A stretch of DNA of 64,000 nt from Candidatus Latescibacterota bacterium (GCA_965248435.1 OZ252100.1:3840001-3904000); one strand, 5' to 3'. Shown: positions 9,683-31,852, numbered from the stretch's first letter. Program-made: numbers and translations. Notes: generated from the sequence alone by a model not told the origin.

Positions 9683-10019
9683 AAGCACGGTCCTTTAGAC
9701 GACCTGATGGAAATTAGGTTCTATGGTTCAGAATATTAGGTGTATCTATAGAAAGGCATTCACGTAATAGGGCGCATTATCTATATTATTGGCAGGATTT
9801 ACGCAGTGCATTTTATCTGCCCTACAGGTGGAATCTGCGCACATGGTGCGCGAATGCAGAAGTTGAACTAAACCGCTTCGCGGTGGCCTGCTGCAAGGCC
9901 TTTGCTCTTTGACAACCAGGATATGATACCGTGCAAGTCCGGAGCCACTTTGCAAATGGCTCTGTGCTTCGCATCCTCCTTCTGCTAACAACGTCCACCA
10001 TCAGCAGAAGGAGAGAGCC

Positions 10020-10871
10020 ATGACCAAGCATCGGAAGCGAATGATCCGGGACATGCAGTTGAAAGGTTTAGATCCGGATACGCAGAAGGCGTACGTGAGC
10101 GGAGTGGCCGGGCTGTGTCGTTACTGCAAGACACCGCCCGACCGGCTCAGCGAAGAAGAGATCCGCGCCTATCTGCACTATCTGATCACTGAGCGGAAGC
10201 TGTCCCAAAGCTATGTCAACCAGGTATACAGCGGGCTGAAGTTTCTGTTCCAAACGACGTTGAAGCGTGACTGGGTCGAGTGGGGCATCCCTCGTGCGAA
10301 GAAGGCAAAGAAGCTCCCGGTGGTACTCTCCACAGAGGAAGTGCAGCGGCTGATCGACAGGACCAACAACCTGAAACACCGTACGCTGCTGATGGTCATT
10401 TACTCTGGCGGGCTCAGACTGAGTGAGGCCATCGGGCTAAAGCTTTCCGATATCGACAGTGACCGGATGCTGATCCGTGTGCGGGGCAAAGGCCAAAAAG
10501 AGCGAGAGACGCTTCTGGCCCAGGAGGCCTTAAAGGCACTCCGCGTCTATTGGCGCACCAACCCGTCTCGCGATTGGCTGTTCCCCGGCGAAAGACCGGA
10601 CGCGCCGCTCCATGCTCGCACTGTCCAGAAAGTCTTCGAGCAGGCCTGCCGACGCGCGGAGATACAAAAGCGTGCGAGTGTCCACTCGCTGCGTCACAGC
10701 TTCGCCACGCATCTTCTGGACAACGGAGTCGACATCCGCTTCGTCCAACAACTGTTGGGTCACACGAGCATTCGAACCACCACCGTCTACCTCCACGTCA
10801 CCACCCGGGACCTCACGCGTATCAGAAGCCCCCTGGACCTTTTGGGAGATGAAGACAAGCCGACTTCGTAG
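10020..10871 (+). CDS. Tyrosine recombinase (N-terminal SAM-like + catalytic domain), without the IntI-specific insertion
   Basis: YSGGLRLSE (R), GKGQKER (K), HSLRHSFATH (HxxR), LLGH..TTVY (H, Y); 283 aa; the segment before WLFPG is short. Confidence 0.92.
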   Translation: MTKHRKRMIRDMQLKGLDPDTQKAYVSGVAGLCRYCKTPPDRLSEEEIRAYLHYLITERKLSQSYVNQVYSGLKFLFQTTLKRDWVEWGIPRAKKAKKLPVVLSTEEVQRLIDRTNNLKHRTLLMVIYSGGLRLSEAIGLKLSDIDSDRMLIRVRGKGQKERETLLAQEALKALRVYWRTNPSRDWLFPGERPDAPLHARTVQKVFEQACRRAEIQKRASVHSLRHSFATHLLDNGVDIRFVQQLLGHTSIRTTTVYLHVTTRDLTRIRSPLDLLGDEDKPTS

Positions 10872-10883
10872 CGGAGGTCGGCC

Positions 10884-12068
10884 ATGTCACAGGCTCTCGA
10901 AGTCGCCGACATCTTCCGGGCCCACGGAGACAGCTATCAAGTAGAATACGGTGATCACATGCCGCTTCGGCAGAAGCGGGCCATGCGGGCTATCCAGATC
11001 TGCCGAACAGCTGCGCTGGGCGGACACGTGGAAGTGTGCGGACACTGCGGAGCGAAGCGGATCGCCTACAACTCCTGCCGCAACCGGCACTGTACGAAGT
11101 GCCAGTTCCTGACGACCGAACGATGGATCGACGCTCGTAAAGAGGATCTCCTTCCGATCCCATACTTCCACGTCGTCTTCACGTTGCCCGAGCCCCTGCG
11201 GCCGCTTGCTCTGCGGAACCAGAAGCTGATCTACAACCTGGTGTTTAAAGCCGCATCGCAGAGTCTTCTGGAGCTGGCGCGGGAACGGAAGTATCTTGGA
11301 GCGCAGATCGGCTTTACCGCCGTGCTTCATACATGGTCTCAGACACTCATCGACCACCCGCATCTGCACTGTATCGTAACTGGAGGTGGGCTGACCCACG
11401 ACGGTCAGGAATGGAAGGCGGCGCGACGGGGCTTCTTTCTACCCGTAAAAGTTCTGTCCCGACTGTTCCGGGGGAAGTTCCTTGCGTTCCTGAAGGACGC
11501 GCACCAGGAAGGCCTTCTGGCGTTCCCGGGATTGAGTGCTCCACTGGAAGATGCGTTCTTCGATCTGCTTCGGGGTCTTTACCAGAGAGAATGGACCGTT
11601 TACGTCAAGCCGACTTTTGCGGATCCAGAACGCATCGTGGCCTATCTGGGACGATACACACACCGGATCGCCATCTCCAACCACCGGCTGGTCGCCTGTG
11701 AGGGCGACCGGGTCTCATTCCACTACCGGGACCGCCAGGCCGGCAACCGACGGAAGCTGATGACCGTCGATGCCTACGAGTTCATCCGGCGGTTCCTGCT
11801 TCACATCCTGCCGGATGGCTTCGTGAAGATCCGGCACTACGGACTGCTCAGCAATCGGGGTCGCCGGAAAAAGCTCGCACGATGCCGTAGGCTCCTGGGC
11901 ACTGTATGCACGACGGCTTCCGCAGCCACAAAGGCGACCTGGCAGGACCTTCTGCTCCGGGTAACAGGCATCGATCTTCAGGTCTGTGCGCAGTGCGGAG
12001 GCCCTATGCTCACAGTCGGAACCCTCGCGCCTCTGCGAGCGCCTCCGGCACATGTTGCCGTAGCTTGA
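10884..12068 (+). CDS. IS91-family rolling-circle (HUH, Y2) transposase with N-terminal zinc-binding domain
   Basis: CRTAALGGH..CGHC..YNSCRNRHCTKC; HPHLHC HUH motif; YLGRY (YxxxY); FIRRFLLHILP..IRHYG; GGAGG RBS directly after the recombinase stop. Confidence 0.93.
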   Translation: MSQALEVADIFRAHGDSYQVEYGDHMPLRQKRAMRAIQICRTAALGGHVEVCGHCGAKRIAYNSCRNRHCTKCQFLTTERWIDARKEDLLPIPYFHVVFTLPEPLRPLALRNQKLIYNLVFKAASQSLLELARERKYLGAQIGFTAVLHTWSQTLIDHPHLHCIVTGGGLTHDGQEWKAARRGFFLPVKVLSRLFRGKFLAFLKDAHQEGLLAFPGLSAPLEDAFFDLLRGLYQREWTVYVKPTFADPERIVAYLGRYTHRIAISNHRLVACEGDRVSFHYRDRQAGNRRKLMTVDAYEFIRRFLLHILPDGFVKIRHYGLLSNRGRRKKLARCRRLLGTVCTTASAATKATWQDLLLRVTGIDLQVCAQCGGPMLTVGTLAPLRAPPAHVAVA

Positions 12069-12273
12069 GCTCCTACACCATCCCTTGCCCGCAAGCCCAA
12101 CCACCCAACACGGCAGTAGTCTGTCCACTCTTTGAGCTTGGTAGAGCGACTATGGGATCCTGCGACATCGGCCCCTCCAAACAGCTTCAAATACGGTCCG
12201 ATGACTGGGCCAGCCCAGCGGTCCTTACACAAGAATCACTCATCCAATCCCCATAGGCAGGTGAAGCGGCTTC

Positions 12274-12348
12274 GTTCAACACCGTGTATCCGGAATCCCG
12301 CTCCCGTCCACGCTTCTCCGACTCCGGATACACGCTTAATCGTTAACT
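12274..12348 (+). repeat. attC-like site A0 (closes the recombinase-transposase module)
   Basis: GTTCAAC, stem cgtgtatccgga/tccggatacacg, then GTTAACT. Confidence 0.75.
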
Positions 12349-12383
12349 GCAATCGTGGCCTGGGTGTCAAAGCAAGGAGAACC

Positions 12384-13448
12384 ATGTTGTCTGTAGCTGT
12401 TGTGGCCCTGGTATCTGTCCTGCTTTTGTCAGATTCTTCTTTCGGAAGAGATGTGAACCTTGACCTGACTCAAGCAGTAGCCGAAAATGACAGCGCCGCC
12501 TTGAGAGTCGCTCTAGATTTAGTTGCAGATGTGAATGCTAAGGACCAGAAAGGCATGACAGCTCTAATGGATGCGGCGATGAACCCCAATCCACACATTA
12601 CACAAATGTTGTTGGATTCAGGAGCAGCTGCAAATGCAATAGATTCGGAAGGCAGGACAGCTTTAATGTATGCGGCAGTGAAAGGAAATATCACAACCGT
12701 TCAAACCCTGTTGGACGCGGGTGCCCATATGAACACTCAAAACCGCGGGGGTAGGACAGTTTTGATGCTAGCTTCAGCAGCGGGTTACGAATCAATCGTA
12801 CAGGTGTTACTGGATGCGGGGGCTAGGGTGAATGCAGAAGACGGGAATGGTTACACGGCATTGAGGTGGGCGGAAAAGAATGCTCACATTGGCATTGCGC
12901 GGACGTTGCGGCTTGAGCGGGTACGGTTTAGGCCAGACATTGATATTCCCCTAATACGGGCATCATTTGCCGGAGACATATCCACTGTCCAAGCCTTGGT
13001 TGAGAAGGGCGTTGATGTGAACTTGAGGGACGAAGGTGGCAATACAGCTCTGAAATGCTCAGCTCGAAAGGGACATACAGACATTGTAGAAGTACTGTTG
13101 GATAGAGGTTCAGACGTGGATGCACAAAGTAAGAATGGCCATACAGCCCTGATGGTGGCAGCTCGTAAGGGCCATACGACTATTTTAGAAGTGCTCCTAG
13201 AAAAGGGCGCAGATGTGAACGCCACGGATATATATAGGGTTACGGCTTTGATGGGCGCGGCAGTCAAGTGTCATCGGACTGTCGTGCAAGCGCTTCTGGA
13301 TAATAATGCGGATGTCAATTTGAAAGACAGTAAGGGTAGAACAGCCTTGGAGTTAGCCAAGATGGCCTTAGGATCTGCCGTCGATTCAAACAAGGAACGC
13401 TATTCTGACCTTATTCTGTTGCTCCAGAATGCAGGAGCCGAGGAATAG
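12384..13448 (+). CDS. Cassette 1: secreted ankyrin-repeat protein
   Basis: Repeated GxTALMxAA..GADVN motifs; hydrophobic N-terminus; AAGGAG RBS before ATG 12384. Confidence 0.9.
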   Translation: MLSVAVVALVSVLLLSDSSFGRDVNLDLTQAVAENDSAALRVALDLVADVNAKDQKGMTALMDAAMNPNPHITQMLLDSGAAANAIDSEGRTALMYAAVKGNITTVQTLLDAGAHMNTQNRGGRTVLMLASAAGYESIVQVLLDAGARVNAEDGNGYTALRWAEKNAHIGIARTLRLERVRFRPDIDIPLIRASFAGDISTVQALVEKGVDVNLRDEGGNTALKCSARKGHTDIVEVLLDRGSDVDAQSKNGHTALMVAARKGHTTILEVLLEKGADVNATDIYRVTALMGAAVKCHRTVVQALLDNNADVNLKDSKGRTALELAKMALGSAVDSNKERYSDLILLLQNAGAEE

Positions 13449-13480
13449 CTGACTGTCAAAAGTTCTACGGCCACGACAGC

Positions 13481-13561
13481 AGTTAACAAGGCACTTGCGG
13501 CTCGGGCCGTGCGGCCCTCGGCAAACCCCTACGGGGTTCGCAAGTGCCTAGACCGTTACAC
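13481..13561 (+). repeat. attC-like site A1
   Basis: AGTTAAC, stem aggcacttgcg/cgcaagtgcct, GTTACAC. Confidence 0.85.
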
Positions 13562-13587
13562 GCCAGGCACACAAGGATGGCTCAAAG

Positions 13588-14160
13588 GTGCTGATGCCCG
13601 AAGCCCTATCCATAATCGTGCAGCGGGTCTTTCACTCCAAGCCTCGATCAACACTGTTGACGGAGAGCACTGCACTCCAAGCTAGCGAGTTGGCCGACAC
13701 TTGCCTGGGCCTGCGCGCGCAGATGCTCCACTGTCTGGAGGGGCTTCCCGCGCTGGCCTTCGAACCGGCGCCTGACCGCCTGCCTGGGGAGACTGGCTGG
13801 ACGGCGGGTGAGATCGTCAGCCACAACACCGACCGCCTGTTGTGGGCGCTGACCGAGGCAACCGCGACCGCCGGACTGAGCGAAAGCATTGTTCCGAGGC
13901 CGCCCGAAGTGGTCGCGAGCAACGCAGCGCACGAGCCTATACTTCTAGACCGCTGCCTTGCCCTGGAGGTCGTGCAGGCGGCAAACGGCCATCTCAAGAG
14001 TGTGCTTCCTCTCCTGTTGTCAACCGACCGGGGGGAGACGACAACGAGGACTCACCACGGACCCATGAGCGTCAAATCGTGGCTACTCCTGATTTGTATC
14101 CACGACAGCGACCATTTGGGGCAGTTGCGCGCACGCCAGGAGCCAGGCACGTTGGCTTGA
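13588..14160 (+). CDS. Cassette 2: DinB-like four-helix protein
   Basis: WTAGEIVSH and IHDSDHLGQL histidine motifs. Confidence 0.7.
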   Translation: MLMPEALSIIVQRVFHSKPRSTLLTESTALQASELADTCLGLRAQMLHCLEGLPALAFEPAPDRLPGETGWTAGEIVSHNTDRLLWALTEATATAGLSESIVPRPPEVVASNAAHEPILLDRCLALEVVQAANGHLKSVLPLLLSTDRGETTTRTHHGPMSVKSWLLLICIHDSDHLGQLRARQEPGTLA

Positions 14161-14203
14161 TGAGGAGGCGATGCTTTTTACATGTGGTGTGGATGTGCCC
14201 GGC

Positions 14204-14345
14204 GTGTAACACGACGGGCTGCGGCTCGTGGCATTCGCCCCTCGCCCAACCTGCCTCATCGCGGTCACGGCACTTGCTCAAGAAAATCGTGGGTGGCAAG
14301 CGCCGCGCCCGCTTGGCAGGTTCGCAGCCCGCGAGAACGTTACAC
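14204..14345 (+). repeat. attC-like site A2 (long form)
   Basis: GTGTAAC, outer stem cgggctgcg/cgcagcccg, inner aacctgcc/ggcaggtt, gagaacGTTACAC. Confidence 0.9.
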
Positions 14346-14408
14346 GCCAGCAGGTTCTTCCTGAAACAACCGATAGGATGATGTTCCTGATGGAGTTCCC
14401 TTGGAGCA

Positions 14409-15299
14409 ATGATGAAAGACTCTTTTTCCGTATCTGACATCCCGCCCGAAGAAATCCAAGAGGTAATCGAGGTCACCAACGACTATCTAGTTGCGTTGGC
14501 GGCTGCGTCGAGGGATCAAGATGGGCATGTAAACGTGAACTGGACTGCTAGCGGCATGCTGGCTACCATAGGCGGTGAGCCCACTATCATCACTGCCCGA
14601 CATGTCGCTGAGGCTCTGGAAAGAGAAGAACCGGAGAGTGTTAAGATCTGGACTGACTTCAGAAAGGAAAGTGCAACGGCAGTAATGTCTTTAGACATTA
14701 CGCATGTACGCTTTGTGAAGTCTGCAAAACCGGCGTCAGGGAAGGCCATTGATGGCCCTGACCTGGCATTGATATTACTTCCGGACCACTTGGTTGGATC
14801 AATATCGGCCACCAAGGGCTTCTACAATCTGGACAAACGGCGCGACGCCGCGCTCCAGCAGGAGGGACCGCCCACGACAGGCTTCTGGCTTGCTCGTGGC
14901 TTTCCGTACGAACTCGTGACCGGGATGGATGGCGCCGAGGGTTTCTGCTTCTACTGCCTCAACCACGTGTGCTACCTCAGCGGATCCCACGAAGAGGCTG
15001 GCCATGATTACTACGACCTGGAGTTCGATTTCACATTGATGGACACCCTATCAGCCTCCGGCGAGCATCCAGAGTTGAAGACCAACCAGGGAATGAGCGG
15101 TGGTCCTATATGGCACGTTAAGGTTCACGGCGACTCGGAGGGCGTACCACGAATAAAGGACCCGCAGGGAGATATCCTTCTCTCCGGAGTGATCTTCTAC
15201 GAGTACGACCTAGAGAAGGAAAGCAAGAAGTTTCGCTGTCACGGAATCCGGTCGGTCTATAAAGCGCTCTACGATCTCCTCAAACAGCAGACTGACTAA
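14409..15299 (+). CDS. Cassette 3: trypsin-like serine protease, no signal peptide
   Basis: IITARHV, DLALI and GMSGGP give a His-Asp-Ser triad. Confidence 0.75.
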   Translation: MMKDSFSVSDIPPEEIQEVIEVTNDYLVALAAASRDQDGHVNVNWTASGMLATIGGEPTIITARHVAEALEREEPESVKIWTDFRKESATAVMSLDITHVRFVKSAKPASGKAIDGPDLALILLPDHLVGSISATKGFYNLDKRRDAALQQEGPPTTGFWLARGFPYELVTGMDGAEGFCFYCLNHVCYLSGSHEEAGHDYYDLEFDFTLMDTLSASGEHPELKTNQGMSGGPIWHVKVHGDSEGVPRIKDPQGDILLSGVIFYEYDLEKESKKFRCHGIRSVYKALYDLLKQQTD

Positions 15300-15316
15300 C
15301 CCTTTGGTGCGCCGGC

Positions 15317-15455
15317 GTGTAACACGAGCACCCACGGCTCCGGCGCATACGCGCCTCCGCTGAAACCTGCCTCCCGCCTTACCAGTCTGCTCTGATAGAT
15401 GCCTGACGGCCTTCGTGAAGAGTCGGCAGGTTCGTGGGTGCCGAGAACGTTAAGT
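15317..15455 (+). repeat. attC-like site A3
   Basis: GTGTAAC, gcacccacg/cgtgggtgc, gagaacGTTAAGT. Confidence 0.9.
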
Positions 15456-15484
15456 GAAACCCGACGAAGGGGTTTACGCAAATC

Positions 15485-16132
15485 ATGCAATCTAAGCGGG
15501 CTGTGGTCCTCCAGCGCATCGCTGCAGAAATCTGGGGGAACCTTACTGACAATGTGATAAAAGTCGCGATCGATGGTGTAGATGGCGCCGGCAAGACGAC
15601 ATTTGCAGACGAGCTCGCTGAAATCATCGAAAACCGACCTATAATCCGTGCATCAGTAGATTTCTTTCACAATCCCCGAGCAATCAGATACCGACAGGGA
15701 AAAGATTCGCCGTTAGGTTTTTTCGAAGACTCGTACAACTACGAGGAACTTCTCGGCTTACTTCTCAATCCTCTAAGTCCTGGAGGGTCTGGGCGCTTTC
15801 GCACTAAGGCATTCGACCACAGGACCGACGCCCACGTTGAGTCACCCGAACTGTACGCGGAGCCAGAGTCGATTCTCTTGTTCGACGGGATTTTCTTGCA
15901 TAGACCTGAACTTTGGGACATATGGGATTATTCAATCTACTTGGACGTGAATTTCGAGAACTCAATTCCGAGATGTGCTCTCCGTGGAGAGGGAAATCCG
16001 GATCCCTATGCCGAGCAGAACCGCCGCTACATAGAGGGGCAGAAAATTTACATCCAAAACTGCCAACCCAGTGAACGGGCAACAATAATCGTCGACAACA
16101 ATGATTTGGATGCTCCCTTTATCGTTTCTTAA
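15485..16132 (+). CDS. Cassette 4: uridine-kinase-like P-loop kinase
   Basis: VAIDGVDGAGKTT Walker A; LLFDGIFL; RRYIEGQ. Confidence 0.8.
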   Translation: MQSKRAVVLQRIAAEIWGNLTDNVIKVAIDGVDGAGKTTFADELAEIIENRPIIRASVDFFHNPRAIRYRQGKDSPLGFFEDSYNYEELLGLLLNPLSPGGSGRFRTKAFDHRTDAHVESPELYAEPESILLFDGIFLHRPELWDIWDYSIYLDVNFENSIPRCALRGEGNPDPYAEQNRRYIEGQKIYIQNCQPSERATIIVDNNDLDAPFIVS

Positions 16133-16166
16133 TGCTGGTACGGCGGGCGTATCCGCGTCGGACTTC

Positions 16167-16294
16167 ACTTAACACGTCCACTTGCGCTGCGGCGCATTCG
16201 CGCCTTGGCCTGACGGCAACCCGCCTTCCTCCTTCGCTGCTTCGCAGCTTCGGAGGGCAAGTCGGCGGGTTCGCAAGTGGCGGGAACGTTATAT
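16167..16294 (+). repeat. attC-like site A4
   Basis: ACTTAAC, ccacttgcg/cgcaagtgg, GTTATAT. Confidence 0.9.
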
Positions 16295-16321
16295 GCAATG
16301 CAGCCAGGAGAGGGTTTTCGA

Positions 16322-24685: not shown

Positions 24686-24713
24686 GCAATGGCGGTGGGG
24701 GGAAGCAGGAGTG

Positions 24714-25586
24714 ATGAAATTGAAAGCGAACGTCATGAACGAAGCGAGTCGCTGGCGACTTGCCCTAGCAAAAAGGGTTTCGGAGATCTATTGCGAACAT
24801 GCCGATGTAAAGGCGGTAGCAGTGGGTGGGTCAGTTGCACGTGGGATTGCTGATGCCTATTCAGACATCGACATGCCAGCGTTCTGTAAGGAATTGCCTT
24901 CTGAGGATTCCTTAGAAGCTTTGTCGGGAAGAATCAAAGGAGCGGTCTGGAGACCTTTTCGCAAATCAGATATGGCTATAGCTTCAGAACTCTATATCGA
25001 CAGTGTTCGAGTAGATATGCCGTTCATTAAGATTGATAGAATGCTAGATGTTCTAGATCAAGTTGTGGAACAGCACAGTACTGATCCCTCCAAACAGAAG
25101 TCAGTTGGAGGAATTCTTGACGCAATTCCGATTCATGGCTTTGATCTAATCGACAAATGGAAGGCCAAGGCTGCCGAATATCCCAATGAACTCGCGAAAT
25201 CAATGGTGAAGAAACATTTACAGTTCGAGCCTCTATGGGTACCAAGGGAATACGCTGTTTTGCGAGAGAGCAAACTTTTTGAGTGTGAGCTAATATGTGC
25301 TTATGCCAAAAATATTCTCGGTGTACTCTTGGGGCTCAATCGAATCTATCACCCAGGTGACCTTAAGAGATTGGATTGGCTTGTAGGGAGAATGTCAATT
25401 GTTCCACGTGACCTGCTGTCTCGTCTGAGAGAAGCTTTCCAGGCTAATCGGAAGGATGTTATAAACGATCTCAGTAAACTAATCGAGGAAATAATCGACT
25501 TAGTAAATACGAAGGAAGTTAGGAAATCACTTAATAGTTCGCCGTATGTTTGTACCATTCCACCCACGGTTGAGATTTCCGATTAG
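24714..25586 (+). CDS. Cassette 13: Pol-beta-superfamily nucleotidyltransferase
   Basis: VGGSVARGIADAYSDID. Confidence 0.8.
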   Translation: MKLKANVMNEASRWRLALAKRVSEIYCEHADVKAVAVGGSVARGIADAYSDIDMPAFCKELPSEDSLEALSGRIKGAVWRPFRKSDMAIASELYIDSVRVDMPFIKIDRMLDVLDQVVEQHSTDPSKQKSVGGILDAIPIHGFDLIDKWKAKAAEYPNELAKSMVKKHLQFEPLWVPREYAVLRESKLFECELICAYAKNILGVLLGLNRIYHPGDLKRLDWLVGRMSIVPRDLLSRLREAFQANRKDVINDLSKLIEEIIDLVNTKEVRKSLNSSPYVCTIPPTVEISD

Positions 25587-25634
25587 AAAAGCGCAGGCCA
25601 CCGTTTTGTAATGGAGAGTCAGCACCGCCACAGC

Positions 25635-25779
25635 AGTTAACACGGCACTCCCGGCTCAGCGCCTGGTTGCGCTTCGCCCAACCTTCCTTCGCGGTCACGG
25701 CGCTTGCTTTAAAGATAAAATGCGGTTTGCAACCGCCGCGCCCGCTTGGCAGGTTCGCAGCCCGCGAGAACGGTTAAAT
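25635..25779 (+). repeat. attC-like site A13 (outer arms do not pair; chimeric)
   Basis: Left arm cggcactccc, right arm cgcagcccg. Confidence 0.88.
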
Positions 25780-25886
25780 GACATGGGATGAAATGAGACT
25801 ACATTCTTGCGGTATATCCTCAGAATAGAAGGAGATATGCTGCAAATTTCGTGATTCACTAATGAACGGGCAACAAGACAAGGAAT

Positions 25887-26786
25887 ATGATGAAAGAACT
25901 TGCTGCAAGAGCCTTGGAAGATATCGAGCACTCAGTACCTCATGGGATATGGGGTGCTCACAACGGCTGTGCGATCCTCGCGGGCATATTTCTGATCGAA
26001 GAGAACTTGATCGAGGAAGGTGCGAAGGAAGCGGTGAAGCAATTGCTCAATTCGAGTAGAGTTAAGAGGGACCAGCAAGGAAACGAAAGGCGCCTCATCA
26101 GCTTGGGTGATTTCAGAGAAAGATTGATATCTTGCCTAGCGCTGGACCCGGAGCAAGTAAAAGAAATCGGCCACGATGTAATCTTCTCTTCGTACGTACT
26201 CAAGGCTTTGGATTTCCTTTCGATCTCACCCTGGGAGTCGTTGCTGGAGAGCATGGTAGAGTTGATCGGCGCGATTAAGGAATCCACGCCAGGTTGGATC
26301 ACCGTGAATGGAGAAAATCAACCGAGAGAACTGGACAAAGTTGACTCAAGTCTGCCGACAAACTACTGGCATGCCTTCGCGGCCTTAGATAGGCCCATCC
26401 AAATGGAAATAGGAGATATGCAGTTAGGACATGTTCTTACTCACGGGCATGCGATCGAGATGTTCAAATTGTACGGAAACAAGAAATCAGCGGTTGCATT
26501 TGATATAGCCTATCGCAAGCGATTGCACGGACTGCTATTGGCAAACAGTGAACAGAAAGAAAGAACAGCGCTTCCTCGTAGAAGGTTAGATCCACGCCTC
26601 GCGAGCTATTGGAGGCACGTGAAAACCAACGGCGACATGGAAGGCCATGTTTACAAGTACGCCTTCAGCTTCCTGGATCTGAATAGGCATGATCTGCGGA
26701 CCGAGGCATTCGAGGCATTCGGAAGGGTTGTTTGGCCCAACAAGCCGCTGGAGACAACGGCGACAAACGATGCGTCTAAGCCCTGA
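25887..26786 (+). CDS. Cassette 14: hypothetical protein with His-rich motifs
   Basis: 299-aa ORF filling the cassette; GAH, IGHDVI, LGHVLTHGH, EGHVYKY. Confidence 0.65.
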   Translation: MMKELAARALEDIEHSVPHGIWGAHNGCAILAGIFLIEENLIEEGAKEAVKQLLNSSRVKRDQQGNERRLISLGDFRERLISCLALDPEQVKEIGHDVIFSSYVLKALDFLSISPWESLLESMVELIGAIKESTPGWITVNGENQPRELDKVDSSLPTNYWHAFAALDRPIQMEIGDMQLGHVLTHGHAIEMFKLYGNKKSAVAFDIAYRKRLHGLLLANSEQKERTALPRRRLDPRLASYWRHVKTNGDMEGHVYKYAFSFLDLNRHDLRTEAFEAFGRVVWPNKPLETTATNDASKP

Positions 26787-26841
26787 TGTTAGTAAGAACT
26801 TGGCTCAACTATCAGTTTGACCAGAGATAGTATCCCACGTC

Positions 26842-26933
26842 ATTTAACACGCCCACTTGCGCTGCGGCGCATTCGCGCCTTGGCTTTTGGCAACCCGCCT
26901 GCAGCGGGTTCGCAAGTGGCGAGAAGGTAGGAC
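26842..26933 (+). repeat. attC-like site A14 with degenerate right core (GTAGGAC)
   Basis: ATTTAAC, ccacttgcg/cgcaagtgg, then gagaagGTAGGAC instead of gagaacGTTA. Confidence 0.8.
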
Positions 26934-26959
26934 GCCAAGTCTGTACAGGCGGGTAGCCT

Positions 26960-28267
26960 ATGGATGAAGAGATCTTGAATGAGTCAATCGTATTCCTTGG
27001 TCTATGTGAGAAAGTCCAAACGGTTCCCGATGGCCATCCGGACTTTCTGAAACAGAACATACTAGGACTCAAGACTACTGTCTTCTCTCCCTTCTTTCCT
27101 ATGGGAATGAAAGGGTTTAGTCTTGCCTTCTGTATGAAGTGGCGGGATGTGCCATTTTCTGCCAAGATTAGAGGCTTGCATCCCGACGGGAAGGAAGCGT
27201 TTCGTATCGAATTCAACGCTGAATTTGAGCCACATGAGTCCGGACAGCGAAAGAAACCAGGTGAGGCCAGCCAATCAAGGTTTAGTGTAATTGCATCAGA
27301 CGATCCGCCATCTTGGGCATTTGTGACTTTCCCTGTGCCTGAAAAATCAGTGGTGGCAACGCCGGGTTTTATGAAAATCTGTGCCGCAGTTGCCGAGGAG
27401 GAGTCAGTCATTGGCCAGGTAAGATTTGTGCATGCGAAGCCTGCCCCACTCACTCCAGATAGAATCGACGCGATCAAGAGCAACCCACAAGCAGCGAAAA
27501 CAGTCTGGTACACAATCGGGTGCACGGAGTGTTCGGACGCTATCAAAGCCTACGCTGGGATCGGTCGCAACATGGATTCGGAAGAAGATGGCTGGATTTG
27601 GCAACATGACCTACCTAAGACGTTCAAATGCAAATGTGCGAAAACGAGGTTGGATCTATCCTATATGCGCGATGGTCTTCACGGCCTCTTGGGTTCCATC
27701 TATAGCATAGGCGAGGACGTAGAGTTCACCCGTCTCTACGAAAGAAGCGCTCTTGAGTCAATTTCAGGCAAGTATTGGAAGATACTGCGAGATTCGGAAA
27801 GGGAAGAAGATCTGCAGAAGTTCATCGAGGGAGCTCCAGCACTTTTGCAGTGTTTTAGTCCTGCACGGATCTTTCACAAGAGCCCCATCCTGAGTAAATA
27901 CAGTGTTGATTTCGCCATTCTCGACACTCAGGGGCACCTAATCCTTATTGAGATAGAAAGACCAGGAATCCGCTTGCTTCGTAAGGATGGCGGAATGGCG
28001 GCCGAACTCGGACATGCTTTCACTCAAGTAAGTCAATGGTTACTGGAATTTGACTTGCATCGACAGGCTTGCCTGGAATGTATTGGGGTCGACCCAAAAG
28101 AGGTTGTCCAAGTTAGAGGTGTAGTTATCGCAGGACGAGAAGCCGAGTATCCGGCAGAACATTTGGCCAGGCTAAAATGGGAAGACCGAGGTAAGATAAG
28201 CTTCCTTACATACGACGATCTTGGCCGGAGCTATATCAGTCTTATTCGAAGGTTCCATGACCTGTAG
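26960..28267 (+). CDS. Cassette 15: Shedu-like (DUF4263) PD-(D/E)xK nuclease with a long N-terminal region
   Basis: C-terminal EEDLQKFI, VDFAI, LIEIERP, AFTQVSQW, VVIAGRE, FLTYDDL. Confidence 0.78.
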   Translation: MDEEILNESIVFLGLCEKVQTVPDGHPDFLKQNILGLKTTVFSPFFPMGMKGFSLAFCMKWRDVPFSAKIRGLHPDGKEAFRIEFNAEFEPHESGQRKKPGEASQSRFSVIASDDPPSWAFVTFPVPEKSVVATPGFMKICAAVAEEESVIGQVRFVHAKPAPLTPDRIDAIKSNPQAAKTVWYTIGCTECSDAIKAYAGIGRNMDSEEDGWIWQHDLPKTFKCKCAKTRLDLSYMRDGLHGLLGSIYSIGEDVEFTRLYERSALESISGKYWKILRDSEREEDLQKFIEGAPALLQCFSPARIFHKSPILSKYSVDFAILDTQGHLILIEIERPGIRLLRKDGGMAAELGHAFTQVSQWLLEFDLHRQACLECIGVDPKEVVQVRGVVIAGREAEYPAEHLARLKWEDRGKISFLTYDDLGRSYISLIRRFHDL

Positions 28268-28283
28268 ATCGTGCAGACTCGGC

Positions 28284-28427
28284 ATCTAACACGCCGGGCT
28301 GCGGCTCCGGCGCATTCGCGCCTCCGGCCCAACCTGCCTTTCGCGTTCACGGCGCTTGCTTGGCGACGAACAAAAGGGGCAAGCGCCGCGCCCACGGGCA
28401 GGTTCGTGGGTGCCGAGAACGTTAAAT
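28284..28427 (+). repeat. attC-like site A15 (chimeric)
   Basis: Left arm cgggctgcg, right arm cgtgggtgccg. Confidence 0.88.
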
Positions 28428-28507
28428 GCAATTGCGGCTCACAGACAAGCCGGCGACGCGTCCTGCGCCGCAAACAAAACTAGAGCTACGGAAGTAGGAG
28501 TACACTC

Positions 28508-29422
28508 ATGGCTGAACAAACCGAAACTGAATCACCCGAATGCAGTAATGTCGCCCCTCTCGTGGGATTCTGGGGCTGTGATGCGGAAACGGACGAGATA
28601 CCTGTTGGGTTTGATGTCGCACTCGTCAGGAATCCGAGGGTGGATGTTGATGAGGAATGGTCAAAGAAGATTGGGACGTCGGCTACCGATGAGCTGCGAA
28701 GAGCTCAGTGGGCACTTGAACACAGGTATCGTGGTGAGCCGGGAATCCATTTGGGATCAAAGGAGGATCTTTCGGATCAGTTGTTGCAGACTGCGTTGCT
28801 TGCTCTTTGGATCACTAAGCCCACCGGAGCCAGGATCACGCACCTGCTGAGATACCGTACCCCCTGGCACTCTGCGAATGCAGCATCTGTCGCGTTCTAC
28901 CGAGGGGATTCCTTTAGACCTAATCGTCGATATGAAAGGACTACTTTCGCCCCCGACGATCTGGATGACCTCGGGACAGTGTTCAAGGGCGTGAAATCAA
29001 TATTCGACATGAAGAAGGGACTCAGGCGAGCACTCTACCATCTGAGCGGGGCCTTACACTTGTGGTTCTGGGATGCTCGATTCGCGATGTTCACAGTCGT
29101 TCTCGAAAGCCTGTTCACCACAGACGCACAAGAGATCACGCACAAGATCAGCGAACGCATCGCCTTCTTCCTTAAGGACACTCCAGCAGAGAGGCGATGT
29201 GTGTTTGATGACGTAAAGGAAATCTACCGTACAAGATCGAGAATTGTCCACGGACTCGATCTCAAGGCTACTGAAGAACAAACCGTCAGCCTCTTGGCGG
29301 AACTAGAGGCGCTTGTTCACCACGTTTTGAAGAGGATTTTGAAAGATTCAAAGCTGGTAGAGGAGTTCTCTGGCAATGCCAAGCGACGTGAACAGTTCCT
29401 AACTGACCTTGTGTTCTCCTAA
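28508..29422 (+). CDS. Cassette 16: ApeA-like HEPN domain protein
   Basis: LESLF..ITHKISERIA..IYRTRSRIVHG (RxxxxH). Confidence 0.8.
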   Translation: MAEQTETESPECSNVAPLVGFWGCDAETDEIPVGFDVALVRNPRVDVDEEWSKKIGTSATDELRRAQWALEHRYRGEPGIHLGSKEDLSDQLLQTALLALWITKPTGARITHLLRYRTPWHSANAASVAFYRGDSFRPNRRYERTTFAPDDLDDLGTVFKGVKSIFDMKKGLRRALYHLSGALHLWFWDARFAMFTVVLESLFTTDAQEITHKISERIAFFLKDTPAERRCVFDDVKEIYRTRSRIVHGLDLKATEEQTVSLLAELEALVHHVLKRILKDSKLVEEFSGNAKRREQFLTDLVFS

Positions 29423-29479
29423 GTCTTTATGGAGCTTGGCCAACTTGCCTTCGTAGCAAGCTGGCCGGGCCGCAACAGC

Positions 29480-29622
29480 ATTTAACACGAGCACCCCCGG
29501 CTTCGGCGCATTCGCCCCTCGCCCAACCTGCCATTTCACTGTCACGGCGCTTGCTTAAGAAAACCGTGGGTGGCAAGCGCCGCGCCAGCTTGGAAGGTTC
29601 GCAGCCCGCGAGAACGTTAGCC
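29480..29622 (+). repeat. attC-like site A16 (chimeric)
   Basis: Left arm gcacccccg, right arm cgcagcccg. Confidence 0.88.
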
Positions 29623-29716
29623 GAAATTCCTTACCCCACCCCGTCTGTGAAGGCACGCAGATTCGTAACCACAGTCGATCGGAGACCGTTTCGACCGGTG
29701 GGACGGAGATCTTATC

Positions 29717-30166
29717 TTGAGATACGGAATGAGTGCCGCGGCCGTGATCGTCCAACACAATCGAGTGCTGCTGGTCCATCATTCTAAGCGGGGCGAGTTT
29801 GACTTCTGGTTGCCCCCCGGCGGCGGCCTTGAAGGACAGGAGTCTATCTTTGACTGCGCCTCGCGAGAGGCACTGGAAGAAACGAGTCTTGAGGTTGAGT
29901 TAGACAGAATTATCTACATTCAAGAATTTGTCGAATCTGACTATCACTTCTGCAAGTTTTTCATCCTGTGCCGAAGTTACAATGGCACCATTTCTCTCAA
30001 GAACAAAACAGCCGAGGAGGATTTCCTGGTAGACGCTCGTTTCTTCTCTGAGAGTGACCTAAGCAGCATGGATGTCAGGCCAGATATACTGAAGGAACAA
30101 TTCTGGTCAGATCTTCGGGCGGGCTTTCCAAAAACGAGATATCTCGGGTTGCACACGATAGGTTAA
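29717..30166 (+). CDS. Cassette 17: NUDIX hydrolase
   Basis: PGGGLEGQESIFDCASREALEET. Confidence 0.9.
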   Translation: MRYGMSAAAVIVQHNRVLLVHHSKRGEFDFWLPPGGGLEGQESIFDCASREALEETSLEVELDRIIYIQEFVESDYHFCKFFILCRSYNGTISLKNKTAEEDFLVDARFFSESDLSSMDVRPDILKEQFWSDLRAGFPKTRYLGLHTIG

Positions 30167-30243
30167 AGACGCAAATGCTTTGACGCGTGCTTGAGGGCTG
30201 CCCTCAATGGAAATACCGAGGGGGGCAGTTCTTCAAGAACTTC

Positions 30244-30340
30244 GGCTAACACGTCTACTTGCGCTACGGCGCATTCGCGCCTTGGCCTCCGGCAACCCGC
30301 CTGACGGCGGGTTCGCAAGTGGCGAGAACGAACGTTATAC
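30244..30340 (+). repeat. attC-like site A17
   Basis: GGCTAAC, acttgcg/cgcaagt, duplicated gaac, then GTTATAC. Confidence 0.88.
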
Positions 30341-30369
30341 CACATTAGTCAGGACAGAAAGGCAACAGA

Positions 30370-30828
30370 ATGAAGGATTGCATGACCTGCGAACTGACGG
30401 AGAGACGCAGGCTGGGCCAAGCTCCACTTTGGGACTGCATCTATCGCACTCAGTTTTGGGATGTGGCGCATGCTTACAATACCGCATTGCCTGGCTGGCT
30501 TGTGTTGATTGTTCAGAGACATATAGAAGCGATCGATGAACTGACTGAGCAGGAAGCCGTTGAGTTGGGGGGCTTGATTCGCCGGGTTTCTTTGGCGCTA
30601 AAAAAGATCACTGGATGTGCGAAAACATACGTGATCCAATTTGCCGAGCATAAAAATCATCCGCATGTGCACTTCCATATTGTGCCACGTATGTCTGATC
30701 AGCCCGAGGACCGACGAAGCACAAAGATCTTTGCCTATCTGGGCGTCTCTCAAGAGGAAAGTGTGAGTGAACATCAGATGAATGACATTGCCACCAAGAT
30801 TCAGAGCATTCTGTTGTCAAATGATTGA
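30370..30828 (+). CDS. Cassette 18: HIT-family hydrolase
   Basis: CxxC at the N-terminus; HVHFHIVPR. Confidence 0.9.
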   Translation: MKDCMTCELTERRRLGQAPLWDCIYRTQFWDVAHAYNTALPGWLVLIVQRHIEAIDELTEQEAVELGGLIRRVSLALKKITGCAKTYVIQFAEHKNHPHVHFHIVPRMSDQPEDRRSTKIFAYLGVSQEESVSEHQMNDIATKIQSILLSND

Positions 30829-30845
30829 AAGTCTAAACTCACGTC

Positions 30846-30988
30846 GTATAACACGGCACCCCCGGCTCAGCGCCTGACGGCGCTTCGACCCAACCCGCGC
30901 TCGCGGTCACGGCGCTCGCCTTAAAGACAAAAGCCGGGGCAACCTCCGCGCCCGCTCCGCAGGTTCGGGCGTGCCGAGAACGTTACAC
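30846..30988 (+). repeat. attC-like site A18
   Basis: GTATAAC, cggcac/gtgccg, GTTACAC. Confidence 0.9.
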
Positions 30989-31102
30989 GCAACCGGCCCC
31001 TAGCAAGGCAGGGCGGCGCGTCCTGCGCCGCCAAACACAAAGGTTGCAAAAACCGACAAAATTGGCGTCTATTAGAGAGATAATAGGTAAGGATCTTGAA
31101 TA

Positions 31103-31342
31103 ATGCCGACGGTATTGAGGGAAGGTCCCTATCGATTCTTTTTCGTATCACTCGACCGAGAAGAACCCGCGCATATTCACATACGGCGGGAGAACATGGT
31201 AGCAAAGTTTTGGCTTGATCCTATGGCGCTGGAAAGGGCTGGTGGATTCAGAGCTTCCGAACTGAACCGGATCGCCCAGCTTGTTCAAGAGCATCGAGAA
31301 CACTTCTTGGAGCAATGGCATGGCTTCTTCGCAGAAGAGTAA
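31103..31342 (+). CDS. Cassette 19a: DUF4160 protein (putative toxin-antitoxin component)
   Basis: MPTVLREGPYRFFF..EPAHIHI..AKFWLDP..W..FF. Confidence 0.85.
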   Translation: MPTVLREGPYRFFFVSLDREEPAHIHIRRENMVAKFWLDPMALERAGGFRASELNRIAQLVQEHREHFLEQWHGFFAEE

Positions 31343-31637
31343 GTCTGAAGCAAGAGCGCAAGAGGTGACACTCACTGACGAAGTGTTGAGCATTAGCCTC
31401 GTGGACGGTCGTTCCGTCAGTGTGCCGCTTTCGTGGTATCCTCGTCTGTGGTACGGCAGTGAGGAAGAACGCAAGAACTTCGAACTATTTGGAGATGGAT
31501 CGTACATTCACTGGCCTGATCTCGACGAAGATCTCACAGTTGAAGGTATCCTCGAAGGAAAGCGATCGGCCGAAGGTCCCAGCTCGCTGAAGAAATGGCT
31601 CGAGACAAGAGAAGGAAAATCCAAACCCACAGCTTGA
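31320..31637 (+). CDS. Cassette 19b: DUF2442 protein (putative toxin-antitoxin partner)
   Basis: LVDGRSVSVPLSWYPRL..IHWPDLDEDLTVEGIL; overlaps 19a. Confidence 0.85.
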   Translation: MASSQKSKSEARAQEVTLTDEVLSISLVDGRSVSVPLSWYPRLWYGSEEERKNFELFGDGSYIHWPDLDEDLTVEGILEGKRSAEGPSSLKKWLETREGKSKPTA

Positions 31638-31712
31638 GGATACATCCAACTGAGTTGTGCGTACGCGGCCTTGCCATCCCCGGCAAGGCCGCAACTACAA
31701 GGTCCCGGCAGC

Positions 31713-31852
31713 GTGTAACACGACGGGCTGCGGCTCGGGGCATTCGCCCCTCGCGCAACCTGCCTTATCGCGGTCACGGTGCTTGCCGATGAAAGGCGGG
31801 TTGCAACCGCCGCGCCCGCTCGGCAGGTTCGTGGGTGCCGAGACCGTTACCT
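31713..31852 (+). repeat. attC-like site A19 (chimeric; last intact site)
   Basis: Left arm cgggctgcg, right arm cgtgggtgccg, GTTACCT. Confidence 0.88.

What the first reader, a model, noticed from the sequence alone, without database searches (positions are those of the whole stretch)
9862..31719. Every unit has long terminal inverted repeats with an invariant A/C mismatch at position 11
Aligning each cassette start with the reverse complement of its own end gives 13-25 bp matches, well beyond the 7-bp integron core. Examples: cassette 5 GTTATATGCAATGCAGCCAGG vs GTTATATGCAGTGCAGCCAGG; cassette 6 GTTATAGGAAATGCCAGCAG vs GTTATAGGAAGTGCCAGCAG; cassette 8 GTTAAACGACATAAGA vs GTTAAACGACGTAAGA; cassette 14 GTTAAATGACATGGGAT vs GTTAAATGACGTGGGAT. 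The repeat sequence differs between cassettes, but in all 19, and in the recombinase module, position 11 is A at the start and G in the reverse-complemented end. This is an A-C mismatch on the top strand and a T-G wobble on the bottom strand. Inference: selection acts on a folded single-stranded cassette or circle, with a strand/orientation determinant on the cassette side of the crossover, unlike the extrahelical bases inside canonical attC hairpins.
Basis: seen in the sequence. Interest (0 to 1): 0.85.

Follow-up and report, generated by a model that had tools for sequence, protein, structure and literature searches.

The report
Cassette ends pair, with one fixed mismatch
This is an integron-like array of gene cassettes in which the two ends of every cassette can pair over about 16-21 bases except at position 11, a pattern that was not seen beside classical integron integrases but recurs beside a related recombinase that lacks their special domain.

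Summary
Window 9862-31845 contains 20 units bounded by G|TT. As the sequence stands, 19 of 20 have A at position 11 of the start and G in the reverse-complemented flank of their own R'' box. The 20th is interrupted by an IS110-family element and fits once that element is read through.

Pairing is cassette-specific. Own ends match at 0.50-0.91 per position over positions 9-19, against 0.25-0.44 for ends of different cassettes. Position 11 is never a Watson-Crick pair, 0 of 34 genome-wide.

It is not the ordinary integron pattern. In 47 cassettes beside canonical IntI genes, pairing fades by positions 11-13, the longest perfect run is 12, and A/G at position 11 occurs once. The literature gives 9-11 nt (PMC2727003).

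This genome has no IntI above the family cut-off. The A/G rule recurs beside a sister clade of IntI that lacks the IntI-specific insertion: 15 of 20 loci in the phylum and 4 metagenome contigs.

Unit 1 is an IS91-family element built like a cassette.

Best reading: a long R-arm stem in the folded bottom strand, with a T.G wobble at position 11 acting as a recognition or strand mark. That function is inferred, not tested.

The parts
9683..9861 (+). attI-like leader in front of the array, ending ...GCAGAA before G|TT
   Evidence: It is semi-conserved in front of all 6 copies of unit 1 in the genome, while the unit itself is 97-99.6% identical.
9862..12341 (+). Unit 1: an IS91-family element built like a cassette. 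Start arm 9862-9881, R'' flank ending at 12280, attC-like hairpin site 12274-12348.
   Evidence: There are 6 copies, and identity stops at G|TT on both sides. Position 11 is A/G. The same end architecture appears in 15 of 15 metagenome copies printed.
10020..10871 (+). Tyrosine recombinase, IntI-like but without the IntI-specific insertion
   Evidence: Pfam Phage_integrase plus SAM_4. TIGR02249 scores 195.5 bits against a cut-off of 265, in two stretches. Alignment A1 shows the gap. It falls in the sister clade of IntI. The closest solved chain is 2a3v, IntI4.
10884..12068 (+). IS91-family Y2 (HUH) transposase
   Evidence: NF033538 scores 449.9 bits against a cut-off of 125. Pfam Y2_Tnp plus Zn_Tnp_IS91.
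12342..13554 (+). Cassette 1 (unit 2), ankyrin-repeat ORF. R'' end 13487.
   Evidence: Position 10 A/T, position 11 A/G, 17 of 20 matched. Pfam.
13555..14338 (+). Cassette 2 (unit 3), weak DinB_2-like ORF. R'' end 14210.
   Evidence: A/G at position 11. Bottom-strand stem of 18.
14339..15448 (+). Cassette 3 (unit 4). R'' end 15323.
   Evidence: A/G at position 11. Stem of 14.
15449..16287 (+). Cassette 4 (unit 5), kinase-like P-loop ORF. R'' end 16173.
   Evidence: A/G at position 11. Stem of 18.
16288..17168 (+). Cassette 5 (unit 6), methyltransferase. R'' end 17095.
   Evidence: A/G at position 11. Stem of 21. Fold shown.
17169..18030 (+). Cassette 6 (unit 7), methyltransferase. R'' end 17950.
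   Evidence: A/G at position 11. Stem of 21.
18031..18904 (+). Cassette 7 (unit 8), tyrosine-phosphatase-like ORF. R'' end 18773.
   Evidence: C/T at position 10, A/G at position 11. After that the register slips by one base.
18905..20039 (+). Cassette 8 (unit 9), APH-family phosphotransferase-like ORF. R'' end 19951.
   Evidence: A/G at position 11. Stem of 16.
20040..20686 (+). Cassette 9 (unit 10), NUDIX. R'' end 20558.
   Evidence: A/T at position 10, A/G at position 11.
20687..22889 (+). Cassette 10 (unit 11), interrupted just behind GTT by an IS110-family element (about 20690-21921). R'' end 22814.
   Evidence: The transposase scores 203 bits on NF033542 against a cut-off of 140. The original start resumes at 21922. 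Read through, it gives A/T and A/G, with 18 of 20 matched.
22890..23644 (+). Cassette 11 (unit 12). R'' end 23545.
   Evidence: A/G at position 11. Stem of 18.
23645..24678 (+). Cassette 12 (unit 13), short-chain dehydrogenase. R'' end 24606.
   Evidence: C/T at position 10, A/G at position 11. Stem of 17.
24679..25772 (+). Cassette 13 (unit 14), nucleotidyltransferase-like ORF. R'' end 25641.
   Evidence: A/T at position 10, A/G at position 11, 17 of 20 matched.
25773..26926 (+). Cassette 14 (unit 15). R'' end 26848.
   Evidence: A/G at position 11. Stem of 17.
26927..28420 (+). Cassette 15 (unit 16), ORF with a Shedu SduA_C domain. Its R' core is mutated (GTA). R'' end 28290.
   Evidence: A/G at position 11 in register, 15 of 20 matched. 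Pfam.
28421..29615 (+). Cassette 16 (unit 17). R'' end 29486.
   Evidence: A/T at position 10, A/G at position 11.
29616..30333 (+). Cassette 17 (unit 18), NUDIX. R'' end 30250.
   Evidence: A/G at position 11. Stem of 16.
30334..30981 (+). Cassette 18 (unit 19), HIT-like ORF. R'' end 30852.
   Evidence: Mismatch at position 8, A/G at position 11.
30982..31845 (+). Cassette 19 (unit 20), a DUF4160 plus DUF2442 gene pair. R'' end 31719. The last R' starts at 31846.
   Evidence: A/T at position 10, A/G at position 11. Pfam.

Best explanation
The region is an integron-type cassette array. Its recombination sites have the usual attC layout: an R'' box ending in AAC, an imperfect L''/L' hairpin, and an R' box starting with G|TT.

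Because the exchange point is G|TT, the first bases of a cassette and the flank of its own R'' box are brought together only when the cassette is excised as a circle. There they form the outer part of the R arm of the folded site.

In this lineage that arm is long, about 16-21 bp. It carries a fixed imperfection 11 nt from the exchange point: A opposite C on the top strand, which is T opposite G (a wobble pair) on the bottom strand. Position 10 is often unpaired as well.

I infer three things:
1. The stem is kept by selection on the folded single strand of the free cassette.
2. The wobble lets only the bottom strand form a continuous arm. It sits where the outer edge of a roughly 11-bp recombinase-binding arm would lie (arm length of Xer-type recombinases is recalled). 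That makes it a recognition or strand-choice mark.
3. The enzyme that reads it is not a classical IntI. It belongs to a sister clade of tyrosine recombinases that lacks the IntI-specific insertion. In this genome that recombinase is carried by an IS91-family element which is itself built like a cassette.

Shown: the anatomy, the covariation, the conservation across genomes, the association with the recombinase clade, and the strand bias in folding energy.
Inferred: every step about function.
For: 1. Pattern. A/G at position 11 in 19 of 20 units as the sequence stands, 20 of 20 with the IS read through. Of 54 units defined genome-wide by HMM hits, independently of the arms, 48 starts have A and 47 ends have G. 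In the 34 de-duplicated units with a 7/7 core match, position 11 is a Watson-Crick pair in 0 and A/G in 29.

2. Covariation. Own-cassette matches at positions 9-19 are 0.50-0.91 (position 11 excepted). Cross-cassette matches are 0.25-0.44. There are 28 different words at positions 12-16 among the 34 units. At least 6 of 8 matches over positions 12-19 occur in 59% of own pairs against 1.9% of cross pairs.

3. Not canonical. I scanned 80 IntI loci from many phyla. Of 191 neighbouring site pairs, 72 had a core match of at least 6/7, and 47 remained after keeping 7/7 cores and removing duplicates (16 loci). In these, pairing falls 0.83, 0.70, 0.53, 0.49, 0.34, 0.34 over positions 8-13 and then reaches background. 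The longest perfect run is 12. A/G at position 11 occurs in 1 of 47. This agrees with the 9-11 nt stated in PMC2727003 and with aadA1 of R100.

4. Long GTTA..TAAC pairs with A/G or G/A at position 11:
- 29 of 34 in 20 loci beside recombinase homologues (15 of the 20 loci)
- 6 of 12 in 80 metagenome loci
- 1 of 36 in the 80 IntI loci (983 kb)
- 0 of 2 in 28 IntI flanks of the same phylum (456 kb)
(all)

5. Enzyme. The genome has no IntI above the cut-off. The recombinase aligns with IntI over its whole length but lacks the insertion. In the tree, the 33 insertion-less recombinases form a clade (98/94) next to the 12 IntI (99/99), with two Xer-like proteins of this genome outside. In other genomes the homologue stands alone, 90-350 nt upstream of arrays that obey the rule.

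6. Strand. The reconstituted junction site is more stable as the bottom strand in 19 of 20 units, mean -46.5 against -40.0 kcal/mol.

7. Mobility. One cassette is present in two arrays at 97.5% identity over 760 nt. The identity runs from the G of G|TT to 133 nt past the R'' end.
Against: - There is no experiment. Which strand is used, which enzyme acts and what position 11 does are all inferred.
- In 5 of 34 cassettes position 11 is a transversion (A/C, A/T or C/G). What is strictly kept is 'not a Watson-Crick pair, A at the start', not always a wobble.
- Some arrays in this genome have no recombinase gene beside them.
- In a related genome (G041), a canonical IntI lies directly upstream of the IS91-type unit at two loci. 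IntI may therefore use the same GTT sites, and the arrays here could have been built by an IntI that was later lost.
- My sample of canonical cassettes rests on my own heuristic site finder and on 16 loci. Class 1 is represented by one cassette and Vibrio arrays by none.
- In that sample, 9 of 47 cassettes have C/T at position 11, which is also a bottom-strand wobble. The rule here may be an extreme form of a weaker general tendency.
- The bottom-strand energy advantage comes from the whole site, not from position 11 alone.
Confidence: 0.55

Rival explanations
1. This is an ordinary integron array (a CALIN) built by a classical IntI that this genome has since lost. The long arm and position 11 would be a lineage-specific flavour of attC read by IntI. 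The insertion-less recombinase would belong only to the IS91-type element and to unrelated neighbours.
For: - The site layout, the G|TT boundaries and the one-ORF cassettes are integron-like.
- IntI occurs in 17 of 168 genomes of the phylum.
- In G041, IntI lies directly upstream of the IS91-type unit.
- 9 of 47 canonical cassettes show a bottom-strand wobble (C/T) at position 11.
- Half of the CALIN reported lie in genomes without IntI (passage in PMC4889954).
Against: - In 28 IntI flanks of the same phylum (456 kb) there is no long A/G pair. Among the 80 IntI loci there is 1 of 36.
- By contrast, 15 of 20 loci beside the insertion-less recombinase have them, often starting 90-350 nt after its stop codon.
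- The genome is 97.5% complete, has about 70 such sites found by profile and no IntI.
Confidence: 0.25
2. The two arms are double-stranded half-sites, not a folded stem. A Xer-like recombinase would bind an 11-bp arm at each cassette end, and the two arms would differ at position 11 (A:T against G:C) to make the ends non-equivalent. The mismatch would be a by-product of two consensus sequences.
For: - A at the start and G at the end are each conserved even where the two ends do not match each other: 48 and 47 of 54.
- Position 8 is a conserved G on both sides, matched 0.94 in own and in cross pairs alike.
- The recombinase scores about as well on Xer models as on the IntI model.
Against: - It does not explain cassette-specific covariation at positions 9-10 and 12-19, which lie beside and beyond such an arm.
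- It does not explain the hairpin between R'' and R', or the bottom-strand energy bias.
Confidence: 0.1
3. The inverted repeats are a footprint of how cassettes are made (copying of one end onto the other), with a mechanistic bias at position 11. They would have no present function.
For: How cassettes arise is unknown (passage in PMC4889954). The arms fade gradually beyond position 16.
Against: - The same position and the same bases are kept across recombinase homologues only 40-56% identical, in many genomes and in metagenomes.
- Cassette copies that have diverged by about 8% keep the arms.
- A footprint would decay evenly and would not leave a single invariant non-pair.
Confidence: 0.07
4. 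The pattern is chance, or an artefact of choosing boundaries that match.
For: None beyond the fact that my first list was selected on matching.
Against: - Boundaries defined from profile hits to the hairpin halves, without using the arms, give the same result.
- Position 11 was left out of the scoring.
- The cross-pair control and the rest of the window give background values.
Confidence: 0.01

Closest known systems
Integron gene cassettes and attC sites (IntI-dependent)
   Same: - AAC...GTT cores, boundaries at G|TT and an R''-L''...L'-R' imperfect palindrome.
- One promoterless ORF per cassette, all in one orientation, arranged in arrays.
- The bottom strand folds better.
- Pairing of the cassette start with the R'' flank beyond the 7-nt core (9-11 nt according to PMC2727003; seen).
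   Different: - No IntI in the genome.
- The linked recombinase lacks the IntI-specific insertion.
- The arm runs to 16-21 bp instead of fading by 11-13.
- Position 11 is never a Watson-Crick pair.
- The unpaired spacer is a 4-nt bulge on one arm with a single extrahelical T on the other.
CALIN (clusters of attC sites lacking an integron integrase; PMC4889954)
   Same: An array of attC-type sites with no IntI nearby or in the genome. Standard software would probably file it here.
   Different: The arrays of this type lie next to a defined recombinase clade, so they may not be orphans. I could not run the IntegronFinder attC model.
IS91-family insertion sequences with an accessory tyrosine recombinase gene (the subgroup is recalled from ISfinder and reviews, not from any call)
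   Same: Unit 1 carries an IS91-family Y2 transposase behind a tyrosine recombinase gene. It is multi-copy with fixed ends. 64 of 80 metagenome relatives of the recombinase have the same gene pair.
   Different: Its ends are built like a cassette: a GTT... start, an R''-like end that pairs with it, then a hairpin and G|TT (15 of 15 copies printed). In this genome it sits at the head of cassette arrays.
Xer/dif recombination (about 11-bp binding arms; recalled)
   Same: The recombinase scores near the Xer models, and XerA/XerD are among the closest solved structures. Position 11 would fall at the outer edge of such an arm.
   Different: The sites are long hairpins separated by whole genes, not a 28-bp double-stranded site. 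Arm sequences differ from cassette to cassette.
Single-strand transposons of the IS200/IS605 type, whose end hairpins carry mispairs used for recognition (recalled)
   Same: A fixed imperfection in a hairpin stem that exists on one strand only.
   Different: A different enzyme class. No subterminal hairpin pair or guide sequences are seen here.
IS1111-attC group of the IS110 family (recalled; PMC11187229 seen only in a search listing)
   Same: The IS in unit 11 is IS110-family. It sits at the same place in R' in three arrays of this genome.
   Different: It is an intruder in the array, not part of the finding.

Membership tests
Integron (IntI + attI + attC cassette array) | An integrase with the IntI-specific insertion near patch III | tested here: not met
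   No TIGR02249 match above 265 bits in the 97.5%-complete genome. The recombinase of unit 1 scores 195.5 bits in two stretches. Alignment A1 shows the insertion missing.
Integron (IntI + attI + attC cassette array) | attC-type sites: imperfect palindromes with an R'' box ending AAC, an R' box starting GTT, an L''/L' stem and unpaired or extrahelical bases | tested here: met
   20 of 20 junctions show this layout. Folds show the R box, bulge, extrahelical T, L stem and variable loop. The curated attC covariance model was not available.
Integron (IntI + attI + attC cassette array) | Cassettes with mostly one promoterless ORF, co-oriented, bounded at G|TT | tested here: met
   ORFs lie on the + strand in all 19 cassettes. 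A cassette copy in another array has identity bounded by G|TT and the end of its site.
Integron (IntI + attI + attC cassette array) | Recombination of the folded bottom strand by the integrase | not testable with these tools
   Only indirect evidence: the bottom strand is more stable in 19 of 20 units.
Integron (IntI + attI + attC cassette array) | R pairing limited to about 9-11 consecutive nt (PMC2727003) | tested here: not met
   Here pairing runs to positions 16-19 with an obligatory non-pair at position 11. IntI-linked cassettes behave as the paper says.
CALIN | Two or more attC sites with no IntI within reach | tested here: inconclusive
   The absence of IntI is met. The sites were not scored with the IntegronFinder model, and a related recombinase lies at the head of the array.
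IS91 family (unit 1) | Y2 HUH transposase; a multi-copy element with fixed ends | tested here: met
   NF033538 scores 449.9 bits against a cut-off of 125. There are 6 copies at 97-99.6% identity with the same ends.
IS91 family (unit 1) | Insertion next to a GTTC/CTTG-type tetranucleotide without target duplication (recalled) | tested here: inconclusive
   All copies are followed by GTT plus a variable base, and no direct repeat is evident. No empty site was found for comparison.
IS110 family / IS1111-attC group (element inside unit 11) | A DEDD-type IS110 transposase inserted at a fixed place in attC | tested here: met
   NF033542 scores 203 bits against a cut-off of 140. The same element lies behind GTT in three arrays.

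The most novel reading that the evidence does not exclude
There may be a second lineage of integron-type gene-capture systems.
- Its integrase is a sister clade of IntI that never acquired, or has lost, the IntI-specific domain.
- Its sites signal strand and orientation through a long R arm with a T.G wobble 11 nt from the exchange point, alongside or in place of the extrahelical bases that IntI reads.
- The widespread IS91 elements that carry this recombinase would be cassettes that bring their own enzymes. That would link rolling-circle transposons and integron cassettes.
- Many 'orphan' attC clusters (CALIN) would then not be orphans.
Probability: 0.35. Interest if true: 0.85.

Novelty: new variant of a known kind. 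Interest (0 to 1): 0.72.

Why it matters
How integron recombinases pick the right strand and orientation of a sequence-diverse hairpin is a central question. So far it has been answered only for IntI, through extrahelical bases, the unpaired spacer and the variable loop.

A natural family of sites with a different, sharply defined imperfection, tied to a recombinase without the domain that reads extrahelical bases, would give a direct comparative test of that model.

It would also change how arrays without IntI are read in genome surveys. And it would connect IS91-type elements with cassette biology.

If position 11 turns out to be neutral, the finding still documents an unusually strong and clean structural covariation in DNA.

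Tried and rejected
- Profiles of the two hairpin halves, built from the window, found nothing near canonical IntI genes of five related genomes. Those integrons have few sites or different ones.

- My generic folding-based site finder has limited sensitivity. At -0.22 kcal/mol per nt it returned 10 places on the top strand and 14 on the bottom strand within the array of 20 sites, some of them with shifted ends. I therefore validated cassettes by the 7-nt core only and left positions 8 and beyond out of the selection.

- Rfam: no family matches the array. There was one chance-level hit at E = 0.85.

- Sequencing runs: four runs from one sample hold the stretch, all as contigs. No RNA holder is listed. 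Laying the contigs gave many joints with sides of 20-57 nt inside the conserved parts of the sites. These are what repeats do to assemblies and cannot show excision or circles.

- Literature. Searches for attC + wobble, attC + IS91 + tyrosine recombinase, CALIN + additional domain, IS91 family + tyrosine recombinase and CALINs + Xer + new class listed no paper describing position 11, the long arm, or an insertion-less integrase clade beside attC arrays. This covers only the held library.
  - In PMC3053210, a search for five terms (beyond, flanking, extend, complementarity, mismatch) gave 0 occurrences.
  - For PMC2727003 and PMC4889954 I saw passages only.
  - Figure S1 of PMC2727003, an alignment of natural attC sites, is a supplement that I could not see and that may bear on the comparison.

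- Ideas considered and dropped:
  - Exchange at position 11 instead of G|TT. Positions 1-10 are cassette-specific and pair with the same cassette's end, so the exchange lies before position 2.
  - A methylation motif or ribosome-binding site at positions 8-12. There is no fixed word, and ORF starts lie at varying distances.
  - Protection against long perfect palindromes. One mispair would not prevent extrusion, and the position is too exact.

- Not done: a covariance-model scan of all 168 genomes for a full contingency table. I did not sample Vibrio arrays, and I sampled only one class 1 cassette.

Full report
**What is there.** Window 9862-31845 is a head-to-tail series of 20 units. Between neighbouring units lies a 67-138-nt imperfect palindrome. 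It has the layout of an integron attC site: a box ending in TAAC, a short spacer, a stem (L''/L') around a variable loop, a longer spacer, and a box beginning GTTA. Units 2-20 each carry one ORF on the + strand, or a gene pair in the last one. Their contents are typical of cassettes: ankyrin repeats, methyltransferases, NUDIX, a phosphatase, an APH-like kinase, a dehydrogenase, a Shedu-type domain and a DUF4160/DUF2442 pair. Unit 1 carries a tyrosine recombinase and an IS91-family transposase.

**Checking the observation.** I took the G of GTT as position 1 and compared each unit's start with the reverse complement of the flank of its own R'' box.
- Position 11 is A against G in 19 of 20 units.
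- The exception, unit 11, has an IS110-family element inserted just behind GTT. Behind the IS the original start resumes. It then shows A/T at position 10, A/G at position 11, and 18 of 20 positions matched.
- Matches in the first 20 positions range from 11 to 19.
- With T.G counted as a pair, the bottom strand has an unbroken stem of 14-21 bp in ten units.
- Six units have A/T at position 10 as well, so there the imperfection is 2 nt wide.

The finer points are the IS, a mutated core in unit 16, and position 10.

**Is it more than chance or selection of boundaries?** Three controls address this.
This gave 142 half-site hits in at least eight arrays and 54 units whose ends were set without looking at the arms. 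Among them 48 starts have A and 47 ends have G at position 11.
- In the 34 de-duplicated units with identical 7-nt cores, position 11 is never a Watson-Crick pair (A/G in 29, transversions in 5). Positions 8-10 and 12-19 pair at 0.94, 0.91, 0.65 and 0.79-0.50.
- Pairing the start of one cassette with the end of another gives only 0.25-0.44 at positions 9-19. Position 8 (G) matches at 0.94 in both comparisons, and position 11 matches in neither (0.00), with A kept at the start and G at the end.

So positions 8 and 11 hold conserved bases, and the rest is true covariation, with 28 different words at positions 12-16 among 34 cassettes. Outside the array the window shows background only.

**Comparison with classical integrons.**
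- A passage in PMC2727003 states that self-pairing usually extends beyond the 7-nt boxes to 9-11 consecutive nt.
- The aadA1 cassette of plasmid R100 pairs to position 12 with two transitions.
- For a wider sample I aligned IntI proteins, fetched 80 IntI loci from many phyla, found hairpin sites with a folding-based scan, and kept cassettes whose 7-nt cores matched. This left 47 after de-duplication, from 16 loci. Pairing there falls from 0.83 at position 8 to 0.34 at positions 12-13 and then to background. The longest perfect run is 12. A/G at position 11 occurs once.
- A search for long GTTA...TAAC pairs with position 11 unscored found A/G or G/A in 1 of 36 pairs in these 983 kb, and in 0 of 2 pairs in 456 kb around IntI genes of the window's own phylum.

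One caveat is that 9 of the 47 canonical cassettes have C/T at position 11, which is also a wobble on the bottom strand.

**What enzyme goes with it.**
- The genome is 97.5% complete and has no match to the IntI family above its cut-off.
- The recombinase of unit 1 aligns with IntI end to end at 36-37% identity but lacks the insertion that defines IntI. Its closest solved relative by sequence is IntI4 (2a3v), followed by XerA and XerD.
- Homologues at 40-56% identity occur in 24 of 168 genomes of the phylum. IntI occurs in 17.
- I fetched 20 such loci. Only one has the IS91 transposase next to the recombinase. In 15 of the 20 there are cassettes with the long arm and the A/G rule. Often the first cassette starts 90-350 nt after the recombinase's stop codon and in the same orientation. 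In a few loci the array diverges from the gene.
- Of 80 metagenome contigs with relatives, 64 carry the IS91 transposase. Four of the contigs without it show A/G-type cassettes right behind the recombinase.
- In a maximum-likelihood tree, the 33 insertion-less recombinases form one clade (98/94) beside the 12 IntI (99/99), with two Xer-like proteins of this genome outside. The IS91-linked recombinases form one subclade (100/99). The outgroup sampling is thin.

**Unit 1.**
- It is present six times in the genome at 97-99.6% identity, and the identity stops exactly at G|TT on both sides.
- Each copy is preceded by a leader that is only semi-conserved. Each copy is followed by a cassette start with A at position 11 (6 of 6).
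- Its own end has an R''-like box that pairs with its start (A/G at position 11), then a hairpin, then G|TT.
- The same architecture is present in all 15 metagenome copies that I printed, whose proteins are only 42-55% identical to this one. In most of those copies the mispairs lie at positions 5 and 9, but again with A at the start and G at the end.
- In the related genome G041 the unit lies directly behind a canonical intI at two loci.

Unit 1 is therefore both an IS91-family element and, in form, a cassette.

**How it most likely works.** The exchange point is G|TT. The start of a cassette and its R'' flank therefore flank one and the same site only in the excised circle. In the array, the neighbouring flanks belong to different cassettes and do not pair beyond the core.

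Selection for the long arm is thus selection on the free cassette, presumably for folding and re-insertion. A cassette found in two arrays, with identity bounded by the cassette ends, shows that such movement has happened.

When the junction sites are folded in silico, the bottom strand is more stable in 19 of 20 units. In its minimum-energy structure the arm is continuous through position 11, followed by a 4-nt bulge, 2 bp, one extrahelical T and the L stem.

I read position 11 as a mark that only the bottom strand can turn into a helix, placed at the outer edge of the recombinase's arm. This is inference. The rivals are an IntI-built orphan array, double-stranded half-sites, and a footprint of cassette genesis. 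They are weighed in their own sections.

**Novelty.** Pairing beyond the core is known. The long arm, the invariant non-pair at position 11, and the link to an IntI sister clade without the IntI domain were not found in five literature searches of the held library. Standard practice would file such arrays as CALIN (passages in PMC4889954). I rate it a new variant of a known kind.

**Limits.**
- There is no experiment.
- The canonical sample is small and rests on a heuristic site finder.
- Contigs of the source sample cannot show circles.
- Supplements were not available.

Noticed in passing
window 25635-25779, 29480-29622, 31713-31852: In three of the long sites, the 5' half (L'') belongs to one sequence subfamily and the 3' half (L') to another, so the two do not pair with each other. 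This suggests exchange inside the long variable loop, possibly homologous recombination between its conserved central parts.
   Followed up: no
window 20690-21921; also G000:C1 near 2067526 and 1445524: The same IS110-family element (98-99.4% identical, about 1.25 kb) sits directly behind the GTT of R' in three different arrays, like IS1111-attC elements.
   Followed up: partly
window 26921-26933: The R' core of unit 16 reads GTA instead of GTT, and the preceding spacer ends in G instead of C. This is probably a dead exchange site that fuses two cassettes.
   Followed up: no
L037 1-3260 and G041:C1 2158606-2160427: In a genome of the same family, a canonical intI (one full-length copy and one fragment) lies directly upstream of, and co-oriented with, the IS91-type unit. 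Its start there again shows A/G at position 11.
   Followed up: partly
IntI loci L059, L107, L049, L056: Among 47 canonical cassettes, 9 have C at the start and T at the end at position 11 (a bottom-strand wobble), against 2 with the opposite transition. Four loci account for all nine.
   Followed up: partly
window 568-8448: Three consecutive ORFs of about 840 aa lie on the + strand. The third has pectate-lyase-like and GH28 domains. The first two were not searched.
   Followed up: no
window 8648-9682: A gene with DUF1016_N and staphylococcal-nuclease domains lies directly in front of the array leader. A similar gene end precedes the copy of unit 1 near G000:C1 1449637.
   Followed up: no
G000:C1 around 2075518 (outside the window): A repeat of about 1.06 kb, with some 40 copies at 98-99% identity across the genome, is inserted in one cassette. 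It is presumably another IS.
   Followed up: no
window 26960-28267 and 31103-31637: Two cassettes carry a Shedu SduA_C-domain protein (phage defence) and a DUF4160/DUF2442 gene pair.
   Followed up: no
G000:C1 946000-993000 and 2073700-2088800: Two large arrays of the same site type have no recombinase gene of either kind beside them.
   Followed up: no
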